From IMG/VR virus record IMGVR_UViG_3300029828_000006, positions 27,904-91,903 of that record: DNA of 64,000 bases; one strand, written 5' to 3'. Numbering within the stretch: the first letter of the stretch is position 1; each line of letters opens with the position of its first letter. The notes beneath the pieces were generated by a model, which was not told the DNA's origin, ran no database searches, and saw only the letters and a program-made list of their open reading frames with translations. Source of the DNA: a virus (taxonomy: Duplodnaviria > Heunggongvirae > Uroviricota > Caudoviricetes). The translations under genes were made by a program, and so were the position numbers. This document shows positions 45,139 to 53,106 of this stretch, piece by piece.

Positions 45139-45906
45139 TCACCCCATAGATATCGAGGTTTCGGTAATAATACGTTTTGCGTCCAACTCCCATGCTGTGA
45201 TCACGTCTGCAATCACACTTATCGGCGCTTGTGTGGCATAAATACGCTCTTCTCCAATTGGTGCTGAAACATCCGTAAAGCCGACTTCTTTGGCATCCTG
45301 TATCGAGCAAATCAGCGGGACCGGGACACGAACAAGGTGAGTGGTTGCTTCAAATTGTGTACCTGTCATCAGGCGAAGCCGTGCGCCCAGCGAATTACAC
45401 ATCAGACTCATGGTCGCTTTATCAGTTGCCATTAACGTAACGTCATACGTCAGAATGGCCTGGGTGTATTCCAGTTCTGCTAAAGGCATTCCGGTATCCG
45501 GTTCGCAAAAACTGGCTACTTTTTTGCGGTCAATCTGCTGATCATCGTTGATATAATTGATATCCATAGTGCGTGAGATATTGACCAGGGGGAGAGCATC
45601 CCGGTTAATGTTCTGGTTTTCAGGTTTTCTCCCTTGCCCGGCATTTGCGCGACGAACTGCTTTAAGAAACTCGATCGCATTGTCGAAACGGGCCACATAG
45701 ACACGCTCTGCTGGTGGACGATTCAGGAATGACGCAAAGCGTTTTTCTTCCGGCGCGGGGGCCACCAGTAAGATATCAGAAAAAATGTTGCTGATTAGCG
45801 TCGCAAACGCGTTATCCACGTTTTCAAAGCCCGTGGTCTGGAATTTTCCTGTGCGTGAGGTTTGCCATTCACCTGTTCGCGCCAGGAGGGTTTTATTTGA
45901 AGTCAT
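45139..45906 (-). CDS. hypothetical virion protein
   Basis: 255 aa. Confidence 0.3.
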   Translation of the reverse strand: MTSNKTLLARTGEWQTSRTGKFQTTGFENVDNAFATLISNIFSDILLVAPAPEEKRFASFLNRPPAERVYVARFDNAIEFLKAVRRANAGQGRKPENQNINRDALPLVNISRTMDINYINDDQQIDRKKVASFCEPDTGMPLAELEYTQAILTYDVTLMATDKATMSLMCNSLGARLRLMTGTQFEATTHLVRVPVPLICSIQDAKEVGFTDVSAPIGEERIYATQAPISVIADVITAWELDAKRIITETSISMG

Positions 45907-46706
45907 TCGATCACTCCGTTTTGAGTCGTATCAAAATTCCTGGCAGGTATGCAGTAGTAAAGCGAACCAACATGCTGTGTGCCGTAGCTAAAAATACGGT
46001 GCACGTACCACCAGCGGCGCGCTACGCCGTTTACCATCTCTTCATTCCATTCAAGAATTGAGCCGACGGGGACGTTATTTGCTGCAATACGCAGAATCAG
46101 AACATCATCGGTTAAGCCATCCTGCTCACCGTCTGCGTCAATCGCATGGAAAGAGTCACGCCCGTCAGGGTTATCCAGCACATAAACGATTTCAGGTTCC
46201 TGGTAAGTCAGTTCGCGTTGGTTGTTATCCAGTTCAGTGAATGACTCTTCTCCTGTTTCGTCGCTGACTACCCCATATGTGCCAACATCTGGTCGATATA
46301 AGAGAGCCTGAAACGCGTCTGGGCTGGATTCAATAATCAGCATCCAGTCTGCGCGGATTTGGTCGTTAAAGGCTTTATGCCCGTTATAGCGTGCTTTTAA
46401 CTGTGGAGTCGGTTCTCTGCCAGCCAGGGAAGATGGAAGTATGGCTATATCTGATTCGCCAGCATCCGGAGTAAGGCCACCGTTGCTATCAGCAAAATTA
46501 TCATGGCTATCAGCTTGGGCGGCGGGTTGCTCTTCCAGAATGCTGAATGAATCCGAACCGGTATTGCCATGTTCCGGCGCGCCTCCTGCATTCGCTTCAA
46601 TCGGCGCTGGCGTTTCTCTCTGCGTGCTGTCATGTTCTGACTCCTTACTTGCCAGGTTTGCATCGTCAGCAAACCATTCGTCAAAACGGCCCATAAGCAT
46701 CCTCAA
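45903..46706 (-). CDS. hypothetical protein with acidic disordered N-terminus
   Basis: 267 aa. Confidence 0.3.
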   Translation of the reverse strand: MRMLMGRFDEWFADDANLASKESEHDSTQRETPAPIEANAGGAPEHGNTGSDSFSILEEQPAAQADSHDNFADSNGGLTPDAGESDIAILPSSLAGREPTPQLKARYNGHKAFNDQIRADWMLIIESSPDAFQALLYRPDVGTYGVVSDETGEESFTELDNNQRELTYQEPEIVYVLDNPDGRDSFHAIDADGEQDGLTDDVLILRIAANNVPVGSILEWNEEMVNGVARRWWYVHRIFSYGTQHVGSLYYCIPARNFDTTQNGVIE

Positions 46707-46856
46707 AGGTCGATCTGTCAGGTATCGAAAGGAAGATTTTCTGGAGATTGTGATTTTGGATGAAGGAGGGGGAATTCATAAAATGCACTTGCGCACAGTG
46801 CAACGGTGCGCTATAGTTATGGCATTCGGTAATCATCACGGAGGATCAAATGACTA

Positions 46857-47159
46857 ATGACCAAAAAAATTAACATAAAGGATTTCAGGGATGCGTGGCT
46901 TGATGATTTTTTTGAATTTTCAACACCACATAGAAAGATACCTCCTGATATTCATATGACATTGTCACGGAAGTTGGACATTATCAATGCCGCAACTACC
47001 TGTAAGGATTTAAGATCACCACCAGGTAATCGGTATGAGGAACTGTCAGGGAAGCTAAATGGCTATTCATCAGTAAGGGTGAATAAGCAATATAGGTTAA
47101 TTTTTAAGTGGGTTAACGGAAAGGCCGAGGACTTGTATCTCGACCCTCACAAATACTAA
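46857..47159 (+). CDS. higB: HigB toxin (RelE/ParE superfamily)
   Basis: 100 aa, C-terminal RVNKQYRLIFKWVNGKAEDLYLDPHKY matches HigB pattern. Confidence 0.8.
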   Translation: MTKKINIKDFRDAWLDDFFEFSTPHRKIPPDIHMTLSRKLDIINAATTCKDLRSPPGNRYEELSGKLNGYSSVRVNKQYRLIFKWVNGKAEDLYLDPHKY

Positions 47160-47229
47160 AACAGATACCCGGTTACGGACCGGGTTCTGACCAGAGTCCA
47201 CTTAATACGCACGCTAGTAAGGGCAAAAA

Positions 47230-47568
47230 ATGAAACAGGCAACCAGAAAACCGACGACCGTAGGTGATATCCTGCTGTACGAATACCTGGAGCCGTTAGA
47301 GCTGAAGATCAACGAGTTAGCAGAAATACTTCATGTTCATCGTAACACCGTAAGTGCTCTTGTTAATAACAATCGTAAGCTAACGATGGATATGGCATAT
47401 CGCCTGGCAAAAGCATTCGATACTTCTGTAGATTTTTGGATTAATCTTCAGACCGCAGTAGATCTGTGGGAAGTCGAAAATGATATGCGCGTTCAGGAAG
47501 AGTTAAGTCGTATCAATACTGCTGAAAAATTTATTTCTCAGCGGAACCTGAATAAAAAAGCAGCCTGA
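47230..47568 (+). CDS. higA: HigA antitoxin (XRE-type HTH)
   Basis: 112 aa, LAEILHVHRNTVSALVNNNRKLT HTH, FWINLQ motif. Confidence 0.8.
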   Translation: MKQATRKPTTVGDILLYEYLEPLELKINELAEILHVHRNTVSALVNNNRKLTMDMAYRLAKAFDTSVDFWINLQTAVDLWEVENDMRVQEELSRINTAEKFISQRNLNKKAA

Positions 47569-47586
47569 TATAGTAAAACACATACA

Positions 47587-47618
47587 AAAAGCCCACTTAG
47601 CAAGTGGGCTTTCCTTTG
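47587..47618. terminator. terminator after higA
   Basis: aaaagcccacttagcaagtgggctttcctttg. Confidence 0.55.
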
Positions 47619-47624
47619 TAATTA

Positions 47625-47825
47625 ATGAACATTAAACCTATCCGTACAGAACAAGATTATGAGGCCGCACTGCGTGCGGTCGAACCGATGTTCGATAACG
47701 AACCGGAAATGAATACTCCGGAAGGTGATTTCTTTGAGGTTATGAGTCTTCTCATTGAGGAGTACGAGAAGAAACATTACCCAATTCAACCACCATCACC
47801 TGTTGAATCTTTTAACTATCCATAA
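47625..47825 (+). pseudogene. truncated two-domain HigA-like antitoxin (N-terminal domain only; HTH domain missing)
   Basis: 66 aa PIRTEQDYEAAL...EGDFFEVMSLLIEEYEKKHYPI then stop where the HTH domain normally follows; abrupt drop to AT-rich DNA begins here. Confidence 0.5.
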
Positions 47826-47846
47826 TAAAAGTAATCAGGATAAGCT

Positions 47847-48575
47847 ATGATGTCAGAAAAAGTTAAAGATAATCCGTCTATAAATGAAACAGAACTAAAA
47901 TCATTTTCTGAAATAATAAAAGATAAAATATTTAACAAGGTTTTTGCATATGTTGTCATTTCTTTTCTAATTTTTAACTGGAAGGATATTTTAATTATAT
48001 TAAAGTCAAAGGACGACATCCTATATACATTATCTATTGTTTCTGTTGGTGGTAATGTCCCGTTCATTGATAATTGGATTGTATCCCCGTGGGTTTATCA
48101 CGTTGTAATCCCATTTATTTATGGAGTATTTGCATCTGTGTTAGCTCCTGTTCTCACACTGAAGATATCTAAGCTAACAAGTAAATTATACACTGAAATA
48201 AGATATTTAGATGAAGTTGCTGATTATGATAAAAGAATAGAATTGCAAAGAAAGAAAACAAAGTTAAATCAAGCAACCAATGACGCTAAATATTCAAAAC
48301 AAATCTTAGATGAAAATGAAAATAAACTTAATGACTTGGTTGCGAAACAGCGAGAAATTTGTGGCGCGATAAAACTATTGCATACTGATGTTGGCAGTAT
48401 TATTGAACTATATAAAAATAAGGGGGTTAGCATTGAATCTCCGCAAGATTTATGTGATTTTATAGTCGCTATAAAAAGCACATCATTCTATAATGATGAC
48501 AAGCATTTTAATAAATTGGTGTCTGATATTTCCAGTTTGTTTGATAATACTGGAATTGATCTTTCAAAAAAATGA
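47847..48575 (+). CDS. low-GC 2-TM membrane protein with cytoplasmic coiled-coil domain (accessory gene; exclusion/defence candidate)
   Basis: 242 aa; TM helices ~33-50 and ~80-105; markedly AT-rich codon usage unlike neighbours. Confidence 0.5.
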   Translation: MMSEKVKDNPSINETELKSFSEIIKDKIFNKVFAYVVISFLIFNWKDILIILKSKDDILYTLSIVSVGGNVPFIDNWIVSPWVYHVVIPFIYGVFASVLAPVLTLKISKLTSKLYTEIRYLDEVADYDKRIELQRKKTKLNQATNDAKYSKQILDENENKLNDLVAKQREICGAIKLLHTDVGSIIELYKNKGVSIESPQDLCDFIVAIKSTSFYNDDKHFNKLVSDISSLFDNTGIDLSKK

Positions 48576-48581
48576 AAGCCC

Positions 48582-48621
48582 AGCATAAACTACTAGGCTA
48601 TGTGTGGTTTATGCTTTTTTT
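48582..48621. terminator. terminator hairpin shared by convergent genes
   Basis: agcataaac...gtttatgct followed by TTTTTTT. Confidence 0.55.
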
Positions 48622-49802
48622 ACATACTCCATGAACATTTTTTCAGCTTGTGCTGGTGGTGTTCCAGCCATGACAAGCGCATCAATGAACGCCTGCTTCT
48701 TCAGTGCGAACTGATCGGCAAGGCGTTGCTGAAGCTCCTTGTTTTTCTGTTTCTCACGTTGCAAGGCCGCTTCTTTTGCTGCCGCCCGTTTTTTCTGTGC
48801 ATCTGACAACTTTCTGGCCTTGGTCAATTGGTCACGTAGTTTGTCGATCTTGCCGTTGTCCTTTGCCAGTTTTGTACTTAAAGCTGCCTGGCGCTTCTGA
48901 TAGAGCCTCCATTCGCGTTTGGCGGCTTCAACGTTCGTTTTACTGCTACGATTGCGATTAAACTCCTTCTCGTCTTCTTTTGAGAAGTGTTTGGTTGTAC
49001 GGCGGCGATCGTCACCAAATGCAATTTGCGTTGCAGCCTTTTGTAGCGCACGAGCAATACTCATTTGCCAACTGGCGGACTGTAACCGCGTCATTGAGTG
49101 GATCACGTGTTTACAGGCGACGCCTTGCAGCTTCGGGTTGCGAACTTTTGGATAGGCGTATTCTTTTGGCGGTGCCAGGGCAAAGTTACCCGCAGTGGCG
49201 ATGTAACGATACCAGTATTGATGACGACCACAGTCACAATCGAAAGACACTCGCCCGGCGCACAGTGATTTAGTGATTTTGAGAGCTGATTTATCGTCTT
49301 CTGCGATGTCATCAACCATCTGATCCCATTCTTCAAAGCGTATCCGGACGATATGGTGCTGGTGGACGGATATATCCGATGCTTCTACGCGGATATTAAT
49401 CACATTGTGGCGAAGAGATACGGGTGTAGCTCTTTTGATACCAGATCCGTCATCCACGGCGTTATTTGCACGCTTAATATCGATTGCCTGGCTGGATGCC
49501 ACCAGCTGGGCGTATGTGATGCCAGCCGTCTTGCTGTCATATTTTTCGCGCGTTTTACTCCGTAGCTTTTCGAAACCTTTCAGGTCGTCTCGCGTGAAGA
49601 ACGTGCCGCCTTTTTTCTTCCCTAACTTGAGAATATCTTCGGCGGATTTGTTCCTCAGTCTACCTGGCGTCAGCGTCCGGTGAGCTTGTCGGCGCTTACG
49701 GGTTTGTTCTTTCCTGATAAGGTCGAATAAACGCGTGAAGTCCTTAGAGGACAGGCCGTCAGTGATATAGCGCCCGTCCTGGTTTTTCAGGAAATCAGGC
49801 AT
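48609..49802 (-). CDS. SWIM-type zinc-finger protein with basic coiled-coil C-terminus
   Basis: 397 aa; CDCGRHQYW...ACKHVIH (CxC...CxH). Confidence 0.4.
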   Translation of the reverse strand: MPDFLKNQDGRYITDGLSSKDFTRLFDLIRKEQTRKRRQAHRTLTPGRLRNKSAEDILKLGKKKGGTFFTRDDLKGFEKLRSKTREKYDSKTAGITYAQLVASSQAIDIKRANNAVDDGSGIKRATPVSLRHNVINIRVEASDISVHQHHIVRIRFEEWDQMVDDIAEDDKSALKITKSLCAGRVSFDCDCGRHQYWYRYIATAGNFALAPPKEYAYPKVRNPKLQGVACKHVIHSMTRLQSASWQMSIARALQKAATQIAFGDDRRRTTKHFSKEDEKEFNRNRSSKTNVEAAKREWRLYQKRQAALSTKLAKDNGKIDKLRDQLTKARKLSDAQKKRAAAKEAALQREKQKNKELQQRLADQFALKKQAFIDALVMAGTPPAQAEKMFMEYVKKA

Positions 49803-51452: not shown

Positions 51453-52286
51453 ATGTTTTTTATAAAAAATGGAAAAAGATGTTCCTCAACAATACTTGCT
51501 ACTGTTGTTGCTCTCTCTGTTCCCACATTTGCCTTTGCTTATGATTTTAGCAAAATTGACTGTAATGCCCCTAAAACCAGACAGATGTTAATCGATGATT
51601 ATAATGAACTGCTGAAGGACGATCAGGAAGCAATCTCTGTAATTGATGCTTATAATCAGATCAATGAGATAAGAGAAAAAAATAAGCTCCAATGTCTGGG
51701 AACGTATGAATTCTCTGATGGAAGTGCGCTTAGGGTTAGATATAAGTTATATTTAAATAGCCTCGGCACACCCATATATGAATTTGCTCCAGTTGAGGAA
51801 TTAACGCAGGATGATGTAAGCGCATCTATTCATAATTCCCCTGCAACTCCTGCAAGCATGGCTGGACATGATAAAAAAAATAATGGTGAAACGTATGCCT
51901 GTAAGGTGGCTGTAACTTACAAGGGGGAGCGTTCTAACTATATGGGGGATTCCGGAACATGGGATCGTGTGATTACTGACTATGGCACTTATTTTTCATG
52001 GGATTTGCCACGCGGAAACCGAGGCAACAGCACAGGTCAGGATGCTTTTAGTGGCATGGACGAATCAAAGCCTGTATTAGAAAATCAGCTAGTGAGAAAG
52101 GAAACTGAAAAAGATGGTAGCGTGGTTGATGAATTTAGGACTGATGTAAGTTATGGGGAAAAACAACCAGTTCATAAGTTTGTATATGCTCGTAGAATAA
52201 AACCTACAGGCATGAGAGAGTATTATGTTACGGATTTAACAGACAAGCGGGCGTTTATGTTTCTGAATTGTCAGAGAGATTCGTGA
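51453..52286 (+). CDS. secreted protein (signal peptide), low GC
   Basis: ATG 51453 with SD GGAG; MFFIKNGKRCSSTILATVVALSVPTFAFA signal peptide; track ORF starts 51375. Confidence 0.45.
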   Translation: MFFIKNGKRCSSTILATVVALSVPTFAFAYDFSKIDCNAPKTRQMLIDDYNELLKDDQEAISVIDAYNQINEIREKNKLQCLGTYEFSDGSALRVRYKLYLNSLGTPIYEFAPVEELTQDDVSASIHNSPATPASMAGHDKKNNGETYACKVAVTYKGERSNYMGDSGTWDRVITDYGTYFSWDLPRGNRGNSTGQDAFSGMDESKPVLENQLVRKETEKDGSVVDEFRTDVSYGEKQPVHKFVYARRIKPTGMREYYVTDLTDKRAFMFLNCQRDS

Positions 52287-52293
52287 TTGACAT

Positions 52294-52321
52294 AGCAGGC
52301 TTACTATTAAGCCTGCTTTTT
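52294..52321. terminator. bidirectional terminator
   Basis: agcaggcttactattaagcctgcttttt. Confidence 0.6.
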
Positions 52322-52325
52322 GGCT

Positions 52326-52685
52326 TTACTCGGTAATAGTTTTGCAGTTGTTTTGATTTAATGACAATCCTAGCTTGCTAGCAGCCAACTCATTTTCTGT
52401 GTGAGAACCAGCAAAAATGAAGCCTTGTTTTATCTTATTTACGGTGAAATATTTATTATACATGAACGCCCAGATAAATGAGGCAATCCACGGGCCAATT
52501 CCGGCTGTGAGGAATGCCAGTATCAGCATCACTACAAATACCCCAATAAAAGTTATAAAGTCTTTCCTGAACAAAGCTGGAAAAGCACCAAACAAGAATG
52601 TAGTCCAGGAAAAACCATAAAAACCGGTGATTGATTCGCCAGTTTGAGGGTTTTCAAGTTTAATTTTAGTAGCCACGATTATCAT
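52326..52685 (-). CDS. small inner-membrane protein (2 TM)
   Basis: 119 aa, hydrophobic segments FSWTTFLFGAFPALF and IGVFVVMLILAFLTAGIGPWIASFIWAF. Confidence 0.4.
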   Translation of the reverse strand: MIIVATKIKLENPQTGESITGFYGFSWTTFLFGAFPALFRKDFITFIGVFVVMLILAFLTAGIGPWIASFIWAFMYNKYFTVNKIKQGFIFAGSHTENELAASKLGLSLNQNNCKTITE

Positions 52686-52821
52686 CCTTTTACATAAAAA
52701 ACATATAGTTATAGTGCTGTGTGAGATTCTAATGTTACTAATTTACACTTTGTAATGCAATTAAATAACTTTAGGCAGTGGAAGTAACTATTCGTGGCAG
52801 ACTATCGTTAAGACCTTTCAA

Positions 52822-53106
52822 TTATGGTTGCTGTAAATGGAGGGGAACAGCCTGTTCTATCATCCCGCGTATCAAGCCAACTTCAAGTAGTTCCTCGTAT
52901 TCCCAGTATCTGTTTGTTACCAGATCCAGGCTGGCTATGACCTTGTGCCGGTCATTCGGCATAGCCAATTTTTCTGCTATAACCATCAGTGAAAACTCTT
53001 CATCCAGTAGAATTTGATAGCAGTTTTTTGATAGTTCCACTTCCCTTATGAGACTGAAACGTCGCTGGATTGTGGCAGCAGAGTAAGTGAAATCTATTTT
53101 CTTCAT
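52822..53106 (-). CDS. hypothetical protein
   Basis: 94 aa. Confidence 0.3.
   Translation of the reverse strand: MKKIDFTYSAATIQRRFSLIREVELSKNCYQILLDEEFSLMVIAEKLAMPNDRHKVIASLDLVTNRYWEYEELLEVGLIRGMIEQAVPLHLQQP

What the first reader, a model, noticed from the sequence alone, without database searches (positions are those of the whole stretch)
47625..48621. Low-GC 2-TM coiled-coil gene inserted where an antitoxin HTH domain should be
The 66-aa ORF at 47625..47825 matches only the N-terminal domain of two-domain HigA-like antitoxins and stops where the HTH domain should begin. Exactly there the sequence switches to strongly AT-rich DNA encoding a 242-aa protein with two TM helices and a cytoplasmic coiled-coil domain, followed by a terminator. 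It lies directly downstream of an intact higBA pair. The architecture is reminiscent of membrane effectors of exclusion or abortive-infection systems, and the compositional break suggests recent acquisition.
Basis: partly seen in the sequence, partly recalled or inferred. Interest (0 to 1): 0.6.

Follow-up and report, generated by a model that had tools for sequence, protein, structure and literature searches.

The report
Antitoxin remnant beside hypervariable membrane gene
In a D6-like E. coli phage-plasmid, a leftover half of an old antitoxin gene sits next to an intact, very AT-rich gene for a membrane-anchored coiled-coil protein of unknown function; that gene was not inserted recently but is the long-standing, highly variable occupant of this spot, which makes it a reasonable but untested candidate for phage exclusion.

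Summary
There is a 66-aa ORF (47625-47825) equal to the N-terminal domain of a K-12-type HigA, and a 242-aa 2-TM/coiled-coil ORF (47847-48575) at 29% GC, the lowest in the window, downstream of an intact PF05015-type higBA.

The "insertion/recent acquisition" reading is not supported. Phage D6 and other relatives carry a full-length 119-aa HigA (N-domain + HTH) and a homologous low-GC 242-259-aa membrane gene directly after it. The window is 200 bp shorter. P1 has nothing in this slot.

The membrane gene is the constant occupant. Backbones that are 97-100% identical carry at least six alleles that are only 33-76% identical to each other. The membrane module is conserved and the cytoplasmic coiled coil is variable. 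dN/dS is about 0.2 within the window allele.

Ancestrally it is the third gene of a higB-higA-TM trio, seen in three diverged lineages. In the window lineage higB was replaced by another higBA cassette with its own terminator. That left the old HigA without toxin, operator or ribosome-binding site, and its HTH was then lost.

The family has no Pfam, PADLOC, PDB or fold match. Its function is inferred only: most likely a prophage-encoded membrane exclusion/abortive-infection protein.

The parts
45903..46706 (-). P1 gene-7-like tail gene; left flank of the accessory slot
   Evidence: It is 96-100% identical across the D6-like loci. D6 annotates it as 'similar to P1 gene 7'. In P1, gene 7 lies 4 nt from gene 25.
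46753..47621 (+). Swapped-in higBA cassette of the PF05015/TIGR02607 type, with its own promoter region and terminator. HigB is 46857-47159, HigA is 47230-47568, and the hairpin is 47588-47612.
   Evidence: Pfam and NCBIfam give full-length matches. The hairpin has 11-13 pairs on both strands. Sequence shared with the alternative configuration (L003) ends after CTGGAGATTGTGATTT and resumes only at the ATG of the relic ORF.
47625..47825 (+). 66-aa relic of a K-12-type HigA antitoxin (D6 orf72). The N-terminal domain is kept, and the HTH and the intergenic hairpin are deleted. The ORF is identical to D6 through 47786 and has a diverged tail at 47787-47825.
   Evidence: There is no Shine-Dalgarno sequence and only 12 nt between the terminator and the ATG, whereas L003 has a GGAG supplied by the higB 3' end. 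The window contains no PF09907 HigB and no operator palindrome.
47839..47842 (+). AGGA Shine-Dalgarno sequence, 4 nt upstream of the membrane gene's ATG at 47847
   Evidence: Read directly from the sequence.
47847..48575 (+). 242-aa membrane protein (phrog_8191 family). It has a conserved N-terminal helix, two TM helices, a variable cytoplasmic coiled coil and a small helical C-terminal domain. GC is 29.2%.
   Evidence: dN/dS is about 0.2-0.25 within this allele.
48577..48622 (.). Allele-specific hairpin(s) and a T-run after the stop codon, acting as a terminator; they overlap the 3' end of gene 25
   Evidence: Each allele has its own hairpin, and high identity to relatives resumes at the 3' end of gene 25.
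48609..49802 (-). P1 gene-25-like tail gene; right flank of the slot
   Evidence: It is 98-100% identical across the D6-like loci and 57% identical to P1 gp25.

Best explanation
This is the accessory slot between tail genes 7 and 25 of a D6-like (P1-related) phage-plasmid.

**Shown**
- The constant occupant of the slot is a gene for a roughly 240-aa inner-membrane protein. It has a conserved 2-TM module, a hypervariable cytoplasmic coiled coil and a small C-terminal helical domain.
- Ancestrally this is the third gene of a K-12-type higB-higA-TM operon.
- In the window's lineage, the promoter and higB were replaced by an unrelated higBA cassette that ends in its own terminator. The old higA (D6 orf72) was left without toxin, operator or ribosome-binding site.
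- A 200-bp loss, linked to the arrival of the present membrane-gene allele, then removed its HTH. The 66-aa ORF is a decaying relic, not a gene interrupted by an insertion.
- The membrane gene is intact, under purifying selection, and is one of at least six very divergent alleles exchanged between nearly identical backbones.

**Inferred (mechanism)**
- The protein acts on its own as a prophage-encoded exclusion or abortive-infection determinant.
- The variable cytoplasmic coiled-coil/C-terminal part recognises a component of an incoming phage or rival element.
- The conserved membrane module then blocks entry or compromises the inner membrane.
For: **Slot is accessory.** In P1 and in Cronobacter phage JK004, genes 25 and 7 are adjacent.

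**No gain of the membrane gene.**
- D6 has a 119-aa orf72 plus a 242-aa orf73 that is about 60% identical to the window protein.
- The window is exactly 200 bp shorter between the two start codons.
- The low GC is shared by other alleles (L003 is 27-33%).
- There are no flanking repeats.

**Hypervariable cassette.**
- Across the D6-like IMG/VR and metagenome loci (L018 is a more distant P1-like backbone), tail genes are 96-100% identical and orf72 is 93-100%. The membrane protein is 37-100% identical.
- Six alleles are 33-76% identical pairwise.
- By region, residues 22-62 are 74% identical, the TM2 region 55%, the coiled coil 25% and the C-terminus 34%.
- Each allele has its own terminator, and identity resumes at gene 25.
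- L019 is a mosaic allele.

**Functional gene.** dN/dS is 0.17-0.28 in most within-allele pairs, against 0.03-0.18 for gp25.

**Ancestral trio higB(PF09907)-higA-TM.**
- D6-like loci L003, L016 and L019.
- P1-like elements with a 139-aa HigA: L018, L032 and L036.
- Klebsiella plasmids.
- A non-P1 phage, L024.

**Relic status of the 66-aa ORF.**
- Terminator 12 nt upstream and no SD.
- No operator and no cognate HigB in the window.
- A parallel decay series in another phage lineage: L024 has the full trio, L025 has TacAT plus a 68-aa HigA N-domain relic plus TM, and L043 has TacAT plus TM.
- Truncated or frameshifted copies of this HigA are common elsewhere without any TM gene nearby.

**Autonomy and mobile-element context of the TM gene.** Solitary copies occur in:
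- P1-like slots (L021, L022);
- the end of a P2-like tail cluster (L023);
- a lambdoid nin region (L040);
- ICE-like and WYL-regulator islands (L033, L037);
- next to an ATPase and a Dcm methyltransferase (L026);
- beside umuC-like genes (L028, L035).

Against: - No convincing promoter could be assigned to the window copy, so expression in the lysogen is unproven.
- Allele diversity could reflect import of old, diverged cassettes rather than an arms race.
- Some alleles are inactivated: L017 by frameshift, L019 by truncation, and the Klebsiella copies by IS903B. The gene is therefore dispensable.
- The repeated position just 3' of TA cassettes suggests a functional tie to TA modules that this explanation treats as merely historical or regulatory.
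- The origin of the diverged 39-nt tail of the relic ORF is unresolved.
Confidence: 0.55

Rival explanations
1. One reading: a foreign low-GC membrane gene recently inserted into a two-domain antitoxin gene and replaced its HTH-coding half.
For: There is a sharp GC break at the end of the truncated ORF. Only 21 nt separate the truncated ORF from the membrane gene.
Against: - Relatives with an intact HTH already have a homologous low-GC membrane gene directly downstream.
- The window is 200 bp shorter, not longer.
- The membrane gene occupies the same slot in more distant P1-like phages that have no antitoxin.
- There are no flanking repeats.
- The window-type configuration is found in about 70-80 plasmids with 1-4% divergence in the gene, so it is not very recent.
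Confidence: 0.03
2. The 66-aa N-domain protein is kept because it is functional. It could neutralise or regulate the membrane protein (a minimal antitoxin-toxin pair). Alternatively it could act as an HTH-less decoy that neutralises K-12-type HigB toxins of the host or of rival elements.
For: - Two independent N-domain-only ORFs lie immediately upstream of family members: the window and L025.
- The ORF is open in all 8 window-type IMG/VR loci and in L002, and is matched in roughly 80 plasmids.
- It forms its own PHROG, phrog_10398 (66/66).
- In E. coli HigA the HTH is C-terminal. From my own recollection of Yang et al. 2016, not verified here, the N-terminal part contacts HigB.
Against: - There is no SD, and a terminator lies 12 nt upstream.
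- The decay series ends in complete loss (L043, L021, L022).
- The membrane gene is often solitary, so it is not an obligately neutralised toxin.
- orf72 is nearly invariant while the membrane protein's cytoplasmic part is hypervariable.
- Miscellaneous truncated copies of this HigA are common with no TM gene nearby.
- RefSeq mostly does not call the ORF.
Confidence: 0.12
3. The membrane protein is a working third component of a tripartite HigB-HigA-TM system, for example an effector, sensor or membrane anchor regulated by HigA. In the window it is an orphan whose original function is lost or rewired.
For: - The trio is conserved in three diverged lineages, with HigA and TM diverging together between lineages.
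- It moved as a unit into Klebsiella plasmids.
- There is precedent for three-gene HigBA-derived defence systems, PD-lambda-2 and TAC. The HigB and HigA of the trio hit the PD-Lambda-2_A and _B profiles.
Against: - The membrane gene persists under purifying selection without the cognate HigB and with a crippled HigA.
- It also follows unrelated TA cassettes that have their own terminators.
- It is frequently solitary.
- The same HigBA type exists without it, for example on an IncX1 plasmid.
- Within D6-like elements there is no covariation between HigA and TM alleles.
Confidence: 0.18
4. The membrane protein has a non-defence role for the element, or is a nearly neutral passenger. Candidate roles are modulation of lysis timing, envelope or lysogenic conversion, or plasmid-prophage maintenance.
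For: - There is no homology to any defence family.
- D6-like phage-plasmids are reported to carry almost no recognised defence systems.
- Occasional pseudogenisation is seen.
Against: - P1 and JK004 lack the gene, so it is not needed for morphogenesis or lysis.
- A passenger would not show dN/dS of about 0.2.
- A passenger or housekeeping gene would not show a conserved membrane module paired with a hypervariable cytoplasmic domain across backbones that are 97-100% identical.
Confidence: 0.12

Closest known systems
E. coli K-12 HigB/HigA (YgjN/YgjM; PDB 5IFG, 5YCL), a type II toxin-antitoxin
   Same: - D6 orf72, the full-length form of the 66-aa ORF, aligns over both domains with K-12 HigA (E=8e-8).
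- In relatives it directly follows a PF09907 HigB that aligns with K-12 HigB (E=1e-7).
- The gene order is toxin first, with the HTH at the C-terminus.
   Different: In the window the HTH, the cognate HigB, the operator and the ribosome-binding site are all absent. K-12 higBA has no membrane-protein third gene (from my own knowledge of the K-12 locus, not checked here).
PD-lambda-2 (Vassallo et al. 2022, PMC9519451), a three-gene HigBA-derived abortive-infection system
   Same: - The HigB of the trio hits PD-Lambda-2_A (E=1e-41).
- orf72 hits positions 1-119 of PD-Lambda-2_B (E=4e-43).
- Both have a three-gene layout with an accessory third gene.
   Different: [quoted passage not shown]
- Here HigA has no peptidase (119 aa against a 402-position profile), and the third gene is a 2-TM coiled-coil protein with no PADLOC hit.
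- The window itself lacks the A component.
Prophage-encoded single-gene membrane exclusion/abortive-infection proteins, e.g. lambda RexB, P22 SieA, T4 Imm (named from my own knowledge)
   Same: - It is an accessory gene in a temperate phage, not needed for morphogenesis.
- It is a small predicted inner-membrane protein.
- Its composition is AT-rich and moron-like.
- It shows allelic diversity in conserved backbones.
   Different: There is no sequence or fold similarity to any of these. The long cytoplasmic coiled coil is not a feature of those proteins. No phenotype is known.
N-terminal 2-TM effector modules fused to cytoplasmic sensor domains in CBASS, Pycsar or retron systems, and SLATT domains (named from my own knowledge)
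   Same: The architectural logic is the same: a conserved short 2-TM module plus a variable cytoplasmic domain.
   Different: No SLATT or other 2-TM effector Pfam family is among the families listed for 23 family members. There is no nucleotide-sensor domain and no partner cyclase or reverse transcriptase in the locus.
Toxin-antitoxin-chaperone (HigBAC/CmdTAC) tripartite systems
   Same: It is a HigBA-type pair with a conserved third gene downstream, and some such systems defend against phage.
   Different: The third gene there is a SecB-like chaperone that binds a C-terminal extension of the antitoxin. Here it is a membrane coiled-coil protein, and orf72 has no such extension.

Membership tests
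K-12-type HigA antitoxin (for the 66-aa ORF) | N-terminal domain homologous to the family | tested here: met
   It is 91% identical to residues 1-65 of D6 orf72. orf72 aligns with PDB 5YCL/5IFG HigA. PD-Lambda-2_B positions 1-65 match at E=2.5e-16.
K-12-type HigA antitoxin (for the 66-aa ORF) | C-terminal Xre-type HTH DNA-binding domain | tested here: not met
   The window ORF has no Pfam hit. D6 orf72 has HTH_3 at residues 63-115. The alignment shows the HTH-coding 200 bp missing.
K-12-type HigA antitoxin (for the 66-aa ORF) | Cognate PF09907 HigB immediately upstream, translationally coupled, with an autoregulated palindromic operator | tested here: not met
   There is no PF09907 HigB anywhere in the 64-kb window. 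A terminator and no SD lie upstream, in contrast to L003. The operator-like palindrome is absent.
HigB/HigA of the PF05015/TIGR02607 type (upstream pair 46857-47568) | Full-length toxin and antitoxin domains, with the toxin first | tested here: met
   PF05015 matches 1-91/91 at E=4e-35. TIGR02607 scores 102.5 bits against a cut-off of 47.7.
PD-lambda-2 defence system | A: HigB-like protein. B: HigA-like HTH fused to a peptidase. C: P4-antitoxin-related protein. | tested here: not met
   - The A-type HigB is present only in relatives, not in the window.
- The B match covers only profile positions 1-119 of 402, with no peptidase.
- The third gene has no PADLOC hit.
SLATT / known 2-TM defence effectors / Abi families (for the 242-aa protein) | Significant profile match to a SLATT, Abi or other defence-effector family | tested here: not met
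   - PADLOC gives no hit at E<=1.
- Pfam gives only BRE1 at E=0.026, which is coiled-coil noise.
- Scanning 23 family members gives only scattered coiled-coil families.
- NCBIfam gives none.
SLATT / known 2-TM defence effectors / Abi families (for the 242-aa protein) | Fold similarity to a characterised membrane effector | tested here: inconclusive
Prophage-encoded exclusion/abortive-infection moron | Accessory gene, absent from close functional relatives of the phage, with its own terminator and atypical composition | tested here: met
   P1 and JK004 have genes 25 and 7 adjacent. The gene has the lowest GC in the window and an allele-specific hairpin.
Prophage-encoded exclusion/abortive-infection moron | Protects the lysogen against infection by other phages or elements | not testable with these tools
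   This needs plating or competition assays. The only indirect evidence is allele hypervariability in conserved backbones.
Tripartite TA-derived module (higB-higA-TM) | Conserved three-gene synteny across diverged lineages | tested here: met
   The trio is seen in relatives L003/L016/L019, L018/L032/L036, L031 and L024. The window itself retains only a relic of higA plus the TM gene.
Tripartite TA-derived module (higB-higA-TM) | Functional dependence between the TA pair and the third gene | not testable with these tools
   Arguments against strict dependence are the solitary TM genes and HigBA of this type without a TM gene.
Mobile insertion (IS, transposon or cassette) carrying the 242-aa gene | Flanking direct or inverted repeats, or an empty site in close relatives | tested here: not met
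   No meaningful flanking repeats were found. All D6-like relatives examined have a homologue at the site.

The most novel reading that the evidence does not exclude
The 2-TM coiled-coil family is the effector or phage sensor of a previously unrecognised modular defence architecture. A type II TA cassette (K-12-type HigBA, PF05015 HigBA or TacAT, swapped freely) would sit directly upstream of a hypervariable membrane protein. The TA part would supply infection-responsive control, and the membrane protein would execute exclusion or abortive infection. Under this reading the HTH-less HigA N-domain in the window would be a retained adaptor rather than debris.
Probability: 0.12. Interest if true: 0.7.

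Novelty: new member of a known kind. Interest (0 to 1): 0.4.

Why it matters
D6-like phage-plasmids are widespread in E. coli, Shigella and Salmonella, yet they are reported to carry almost no recognised defence systems.

This locus is a fixed slot in an otherwise 97-100% conserved backbone. It holds at least six very divergent alleles of one uncharacterised membrane protein, and that pattern usually marks genes involved in conflicts between phages or plasmids.

The family is small: about 50 clusters at 50% identity among 1.8 billion proteins. It is unannotated and can be tested by simple cloning.

The locus also gives a clear natural series of antitoxin decay after toxin replacement. This is a caution against reading every truncated ORF next to a compositional break as an insertion.

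Tried and rejected
**Searches that gave nothing informative**
- AlphaFold with only 4 sequences gave a poor model (pLDDT 54). It was repeated with 23 sequences (pLDDT 75).
- A profile search of PDB sequences returned coiled-coil noise.
- Pfam, NCBIfam and PADLOC gave nothing for the membrane protein. PHROGs place it only in families of unknown function.
- Rfam gave only sub-threshold hits on the terminator hairpin.
- The repeat search found no insertion signature.
- Promoter scanning found no convincing promoter for the membrane gene.
- The genome-contig scan with the wide alignment failed for lack of a conserved block. The narrower alignment found one chromosomal solitary copy.
- The search for an orf72 operator in the window was negative.

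**Ideas considered and rejected**
- That stand-alone HigA N-domain proteins form a real family. The short homologues have heterogeneous lengths and junk tails, typical of frameshifts and partial genes. Two that were checked have no TM gene nearby.
- That the locus is a PD-lambda-2 system (see the membership test).
- A phage structural or lysis role, because P1 lacks the gene.
Full report
**Where the window comes from.** The region 46700-48900 is 99-100% identical to many non-mobilisable E. coli, Salmonella and Shigella plasmids of about 90 kb. It is 90% identical, in two aligned pieces, to Escherichia phage D6, a P1-related plasmid prophage. The finding lies between homologues of P1 tail genes 7 (45903-46706, minus strand) and 25 (48609-49802, minus strand).

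**Checking the observation.** The ORFs are as described: 66 aa at 47625-47825 and 242 aa at 47847-48575.
- The upstream pair is an intact PF05015 HigB-like toxin with a TIGR02607 HigA.
- GC falls to 23-35% over 47800-48600. At 29.2% the 242-aa gene is the most AT-rich 729-bp stretch of the whole window (z = -4.8).
- The protein has two hydrophobic segments centred near residues 42 and 95.
- In an AlphaFold model built on 23 family members (pLDDT 75), a single helix runs from TM2 through residue 192, followed by a small helical domain.
- Hairpins and a T-run follow the stop codon.
- The 66-aa ORF has no Pfam domain. It is 91% identical to residues 1-65 of the 119-aa D6 orf72.
- D6 orf72 has HTH_3 at residues 63-115. 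It aligns over both domains with E. coli K-12 HigA (5YCL/5IFG, E=8e-8), whose HTH is C-terminal.

**What the comparison with relatives shows.** Phage D6 has, in the same place, higB, higA, a full-length orf72 and a 242-aa orf73 that is a homologue of the window protein (60% identical over residues 19-242 by tblastn; 56% full-length).
- The window and D6 are identical from upstream of the relic ORF through 47786 and then diverge.
- The distance between the two start codons is 222 bp in the window and 422 bp in D6, so the window is 200 bp shorter. The lost segment is the HTH-coding half of orf72 and a small conserved hairpin that follows it in all other alleles.
- The same-slot homologue in a metagenomic relative (L003) is 27-33% GC. 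The low GC is therefore a property of the gene family, not a mark of recent arrival.
- No repeats flank the gene.
- P1 and Cronobacter phage JK004 have genes 25 and 7 directly adjacent. The whole 1.9-kb block is an accessory island of the D6-like lineage, oriented against the late tail operon.

**A hypervariable gene in a conserved backbone.** I compared the 16 IMG/VR loci and the related metagenome contig L003 (L018 is a more distant P1-like backbone).
- In the D6-like loci, tail genes 7 and 25 are 96-100% identical to the window, the higBA pair is 99-100% and orf72 is 93-100%. The membrane protein ranges from 37% to 100%.
- At least six alleles exist, 33-76% identical to each other.
- One allele is a mosaic of two others and is truncated, and one is frameshifted.
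- Variability is uneven. The pre-TM1 helix, TM1 and the KSKDD motif are 74% identical among alleles. The TM2 region is 55%, the coiled coil 25% and the C-terminal domain 34%.
- Each allele carries its own hairpin after the stop codon, and high identity resumes at the 3' end of gene 25.
- Within the window-type allele dN/dS is 0.17-0.28 in most pairs, against 0.03-0.18 for gene 25. It is a constrained coding gene.
- Every locus with a window-type allele has the truncated orf72, and every D6-like locus with another allele has the full-length one.
- In PLSDB, 148 plasmids carry a family member. Of these, 71 are window-type (>=90% identical) and 77 are below 60% identical.
- The truncated form of orf72 is present in roughly 80 plasmids. 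That figure comes from the 83 of 598 records that cover less than 80% of the query.

**Origin of the arrangement.** Two upstream configurations exist.
- In L003, L016 and L019, orf72 lies 3 nt after a PF09907 HigB (start codon 4 nt after the stop). The 3' end of that higB supplies a GGAG for orf72, and its promoter overlaps a GTCCCA..TGGGAC palindrome. This HigB hits PADLOC PD-Lambda-2_A (E=1e-41) and K-12 HigB (E=1e-7). Here orf72 is the cognate antitoxin.
- In D6 and the window, that promoter and higB have been replaced by the PF05015-type higBA cassette from about 46753 to 47621. The cassette ends in a strong bidirectional hairpin (47588-47612) only 12 nt before the orf72 ATG, and there is no Shine-Dalgarno sequence.
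- The window has no PF09907 HigB and no copy of the palindrome.

orf72 is therefore an orphan with nothing to neutralise or bind, and loss of its HTH is what would be expected next.

A second, unrelated phage lineage shows the same series. L024 has HigB, a 138-aa HigA and the TM gene. L025 has TacA/TacT with a terminator, a 68-aa HigA N-domain relic and the TM gene. L043 has TacA/TacT followed directly by the TM gene. Miscellaneous truncated and frameshifted copies of this HigA are also common in other genomes with no TM gene nearby.

**The membrane-protein family.** It is small and uncharacterised.
- A word-indexed search of 5.8 billion proteins found 7 clusters. An exhaustive profile search of 1.84 billion representatives found 50.
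- Members are 205-270 aa and share an NW-x-x-I...KSK-x-DI motif after TM1 and an LP-x3-G-x2-A-x4-P motif in TM2. N44, P89, G93 and P101 are invariant in 23 sequences.
- There is no hit in Pfam, NCBIfam, PADLOC or PDB sequences. It belongs to phrog_8191, of unknown function. Fold searches give only generic coiled coils.

Its genomic contexts are all mobile or accessory:
- the same gene 7/25 slot of more distant P1-like phages with no TA at all (L021, L022);
- the end of a P2-like tail cluster (L023);
- a lambdoid nin region (L040);
- next to an ATPase and a Dcm-type methyltransferase (L026);
- beside umuC-like genes (L028, L035);
- an ICE-like island and a WYL-regulator island (L033, L037);
- one solitary chromosomal copy in Enterobacter (L020).

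The trio higB-higA-TM recurs with a 139-aa HigA in Enterobacter and other P1-like elements (L018, L032, L036). It also recurs in about 46 Klebsiella IncFIB/HI1B plasmids, where IS903B splits the TM gene, and with a 138-aa HigA in phage L024. HigBA of the 119-aa type also exists without it, for example on an IncX1 plasmid.

**How it most likely works.**

*Shown.* The relic status of the 66-aa ORF. The long residence, autonomy and constraint of the membrane gene. Its allelic hypervariability, concentrated in the cytoplasmic part.

*Inferred.* The protein is a prophage-encoded exclusion or abortive-infection determinant. The variable coiled-coil/C-terminal region would recognise an incoming phage or rival-element component, and the conserved 2-TM module would act at the inner membrane.

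I put about 0.85-0.9 on the evolutionary account and about 0.4 on the functional one. Expression is unproven, because no convincing promoter was found.

**Rival explanations.**
- A functional HTH-less N-domain, acting as antitoxin or decoy.
- A truly tripartite HigBA-TM system.
- A non-defence or passenger role.

**Comparison with what is known.**
- The 66-aa ORF is a fragment of a K-12-type HigA. It fails the family's defining features other than the N-domain.
- The locus is not a PD-lambda-2 system: there is no peptidase, the third gene differs, and the window has no A component.
- The membrane protein resembles prophage exclusion proteins and 2-TM effector-plus-sensor proteins in architecture only.
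- D6-like phage-plasmids are reported to carry almost no recognised defence systems, so this slot is an unannotated candidate.

**Verdict.** The insertion and recent-acquisition interpretation is wrong. The antitoxin fragment is ordinary TA decay. The adjacent gene belongs to an uncharacterised, hypervariable, mobile-element-associated membrane-protein family that is worth a simple phage-exclusion test. Interest is moderate.

Noticed in passing
window 46707-46856 and 48577-48599: The accessory block lies antisense inside what is a continuous late tail operon in P1 (genes 26-25-7-24-6). The hairpin at 48577-48599 is followed on the minus strand by TTCATTTTTT, so late transcription may stop after gene 25. 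Gene 7 may then need its own promoter in the 150-bp region it shares divergently with higB.
   Followed up: no
L025 4708-4914 (IMGVR_UViG_2906128962_000004); L024; L043: An unrelated phage lineage of about 90-97 kb shows a second, independent HigA N-domain-only ORF (68 aa) just upstream of a family member, after a TacA/TacT cassette with its own terminator. Its relatives have either the full HigB-HigA-TM trio or TacAT directly followed by TM.
   Followed up: partly
L031 4153-6500 (K. pneumoniae plasmid pKp1198) and about 45 other Klebsiella plasmids: The same higB-higA-TM trio, with the HigA near-identical to those of the P1-like elements L018/L032, sits on large IncFIB/IncHI1B plasmids among IS elements. 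In the listed records the TM gene shows the same partial match (residues 18-173). Most of these records annotate an IS903B/IS5-family transposase under the match; in L031 no transposase is annotated, but a roughly 1.1-kb insertion splits the gene.
   Followed up: partly
L019 3977-4420; L017 3811-4440: One D6-like allele is a mosaic (the N-terminus is L003-type; from TM1 onward it is L016-type) and stops at 147 aa. Another is frameshifted at about residue 205. This shows recombination within the gene and occasional inactivation.
   Followed up: partly
L026 1744-5451 (IMGVR_UViG_3300048921_000549): A distant family member (218 aa) directly follows a 603-aa ATPase-like protein and a Dcm-type cytosine methyltransferase, which is a defence-island-like neighbourhood.
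   Followed up: no
window 47588-47612: A strong bidirectional hairpin (11-13 pairs) lies between higA and the relic ORF. It gives sub-threshold Rfam hits (Trp_leader, RefA9) that are almost certainly terminator look-alikes.
   Followed up: yes
window about 52100-52830: This is the second most AT-rich stretch of the window (36.5% GC). It overlaps small minus-strand ORFs (52326-52685 and 52822-53106) and may be another accessory gene block.
   Followed up: no
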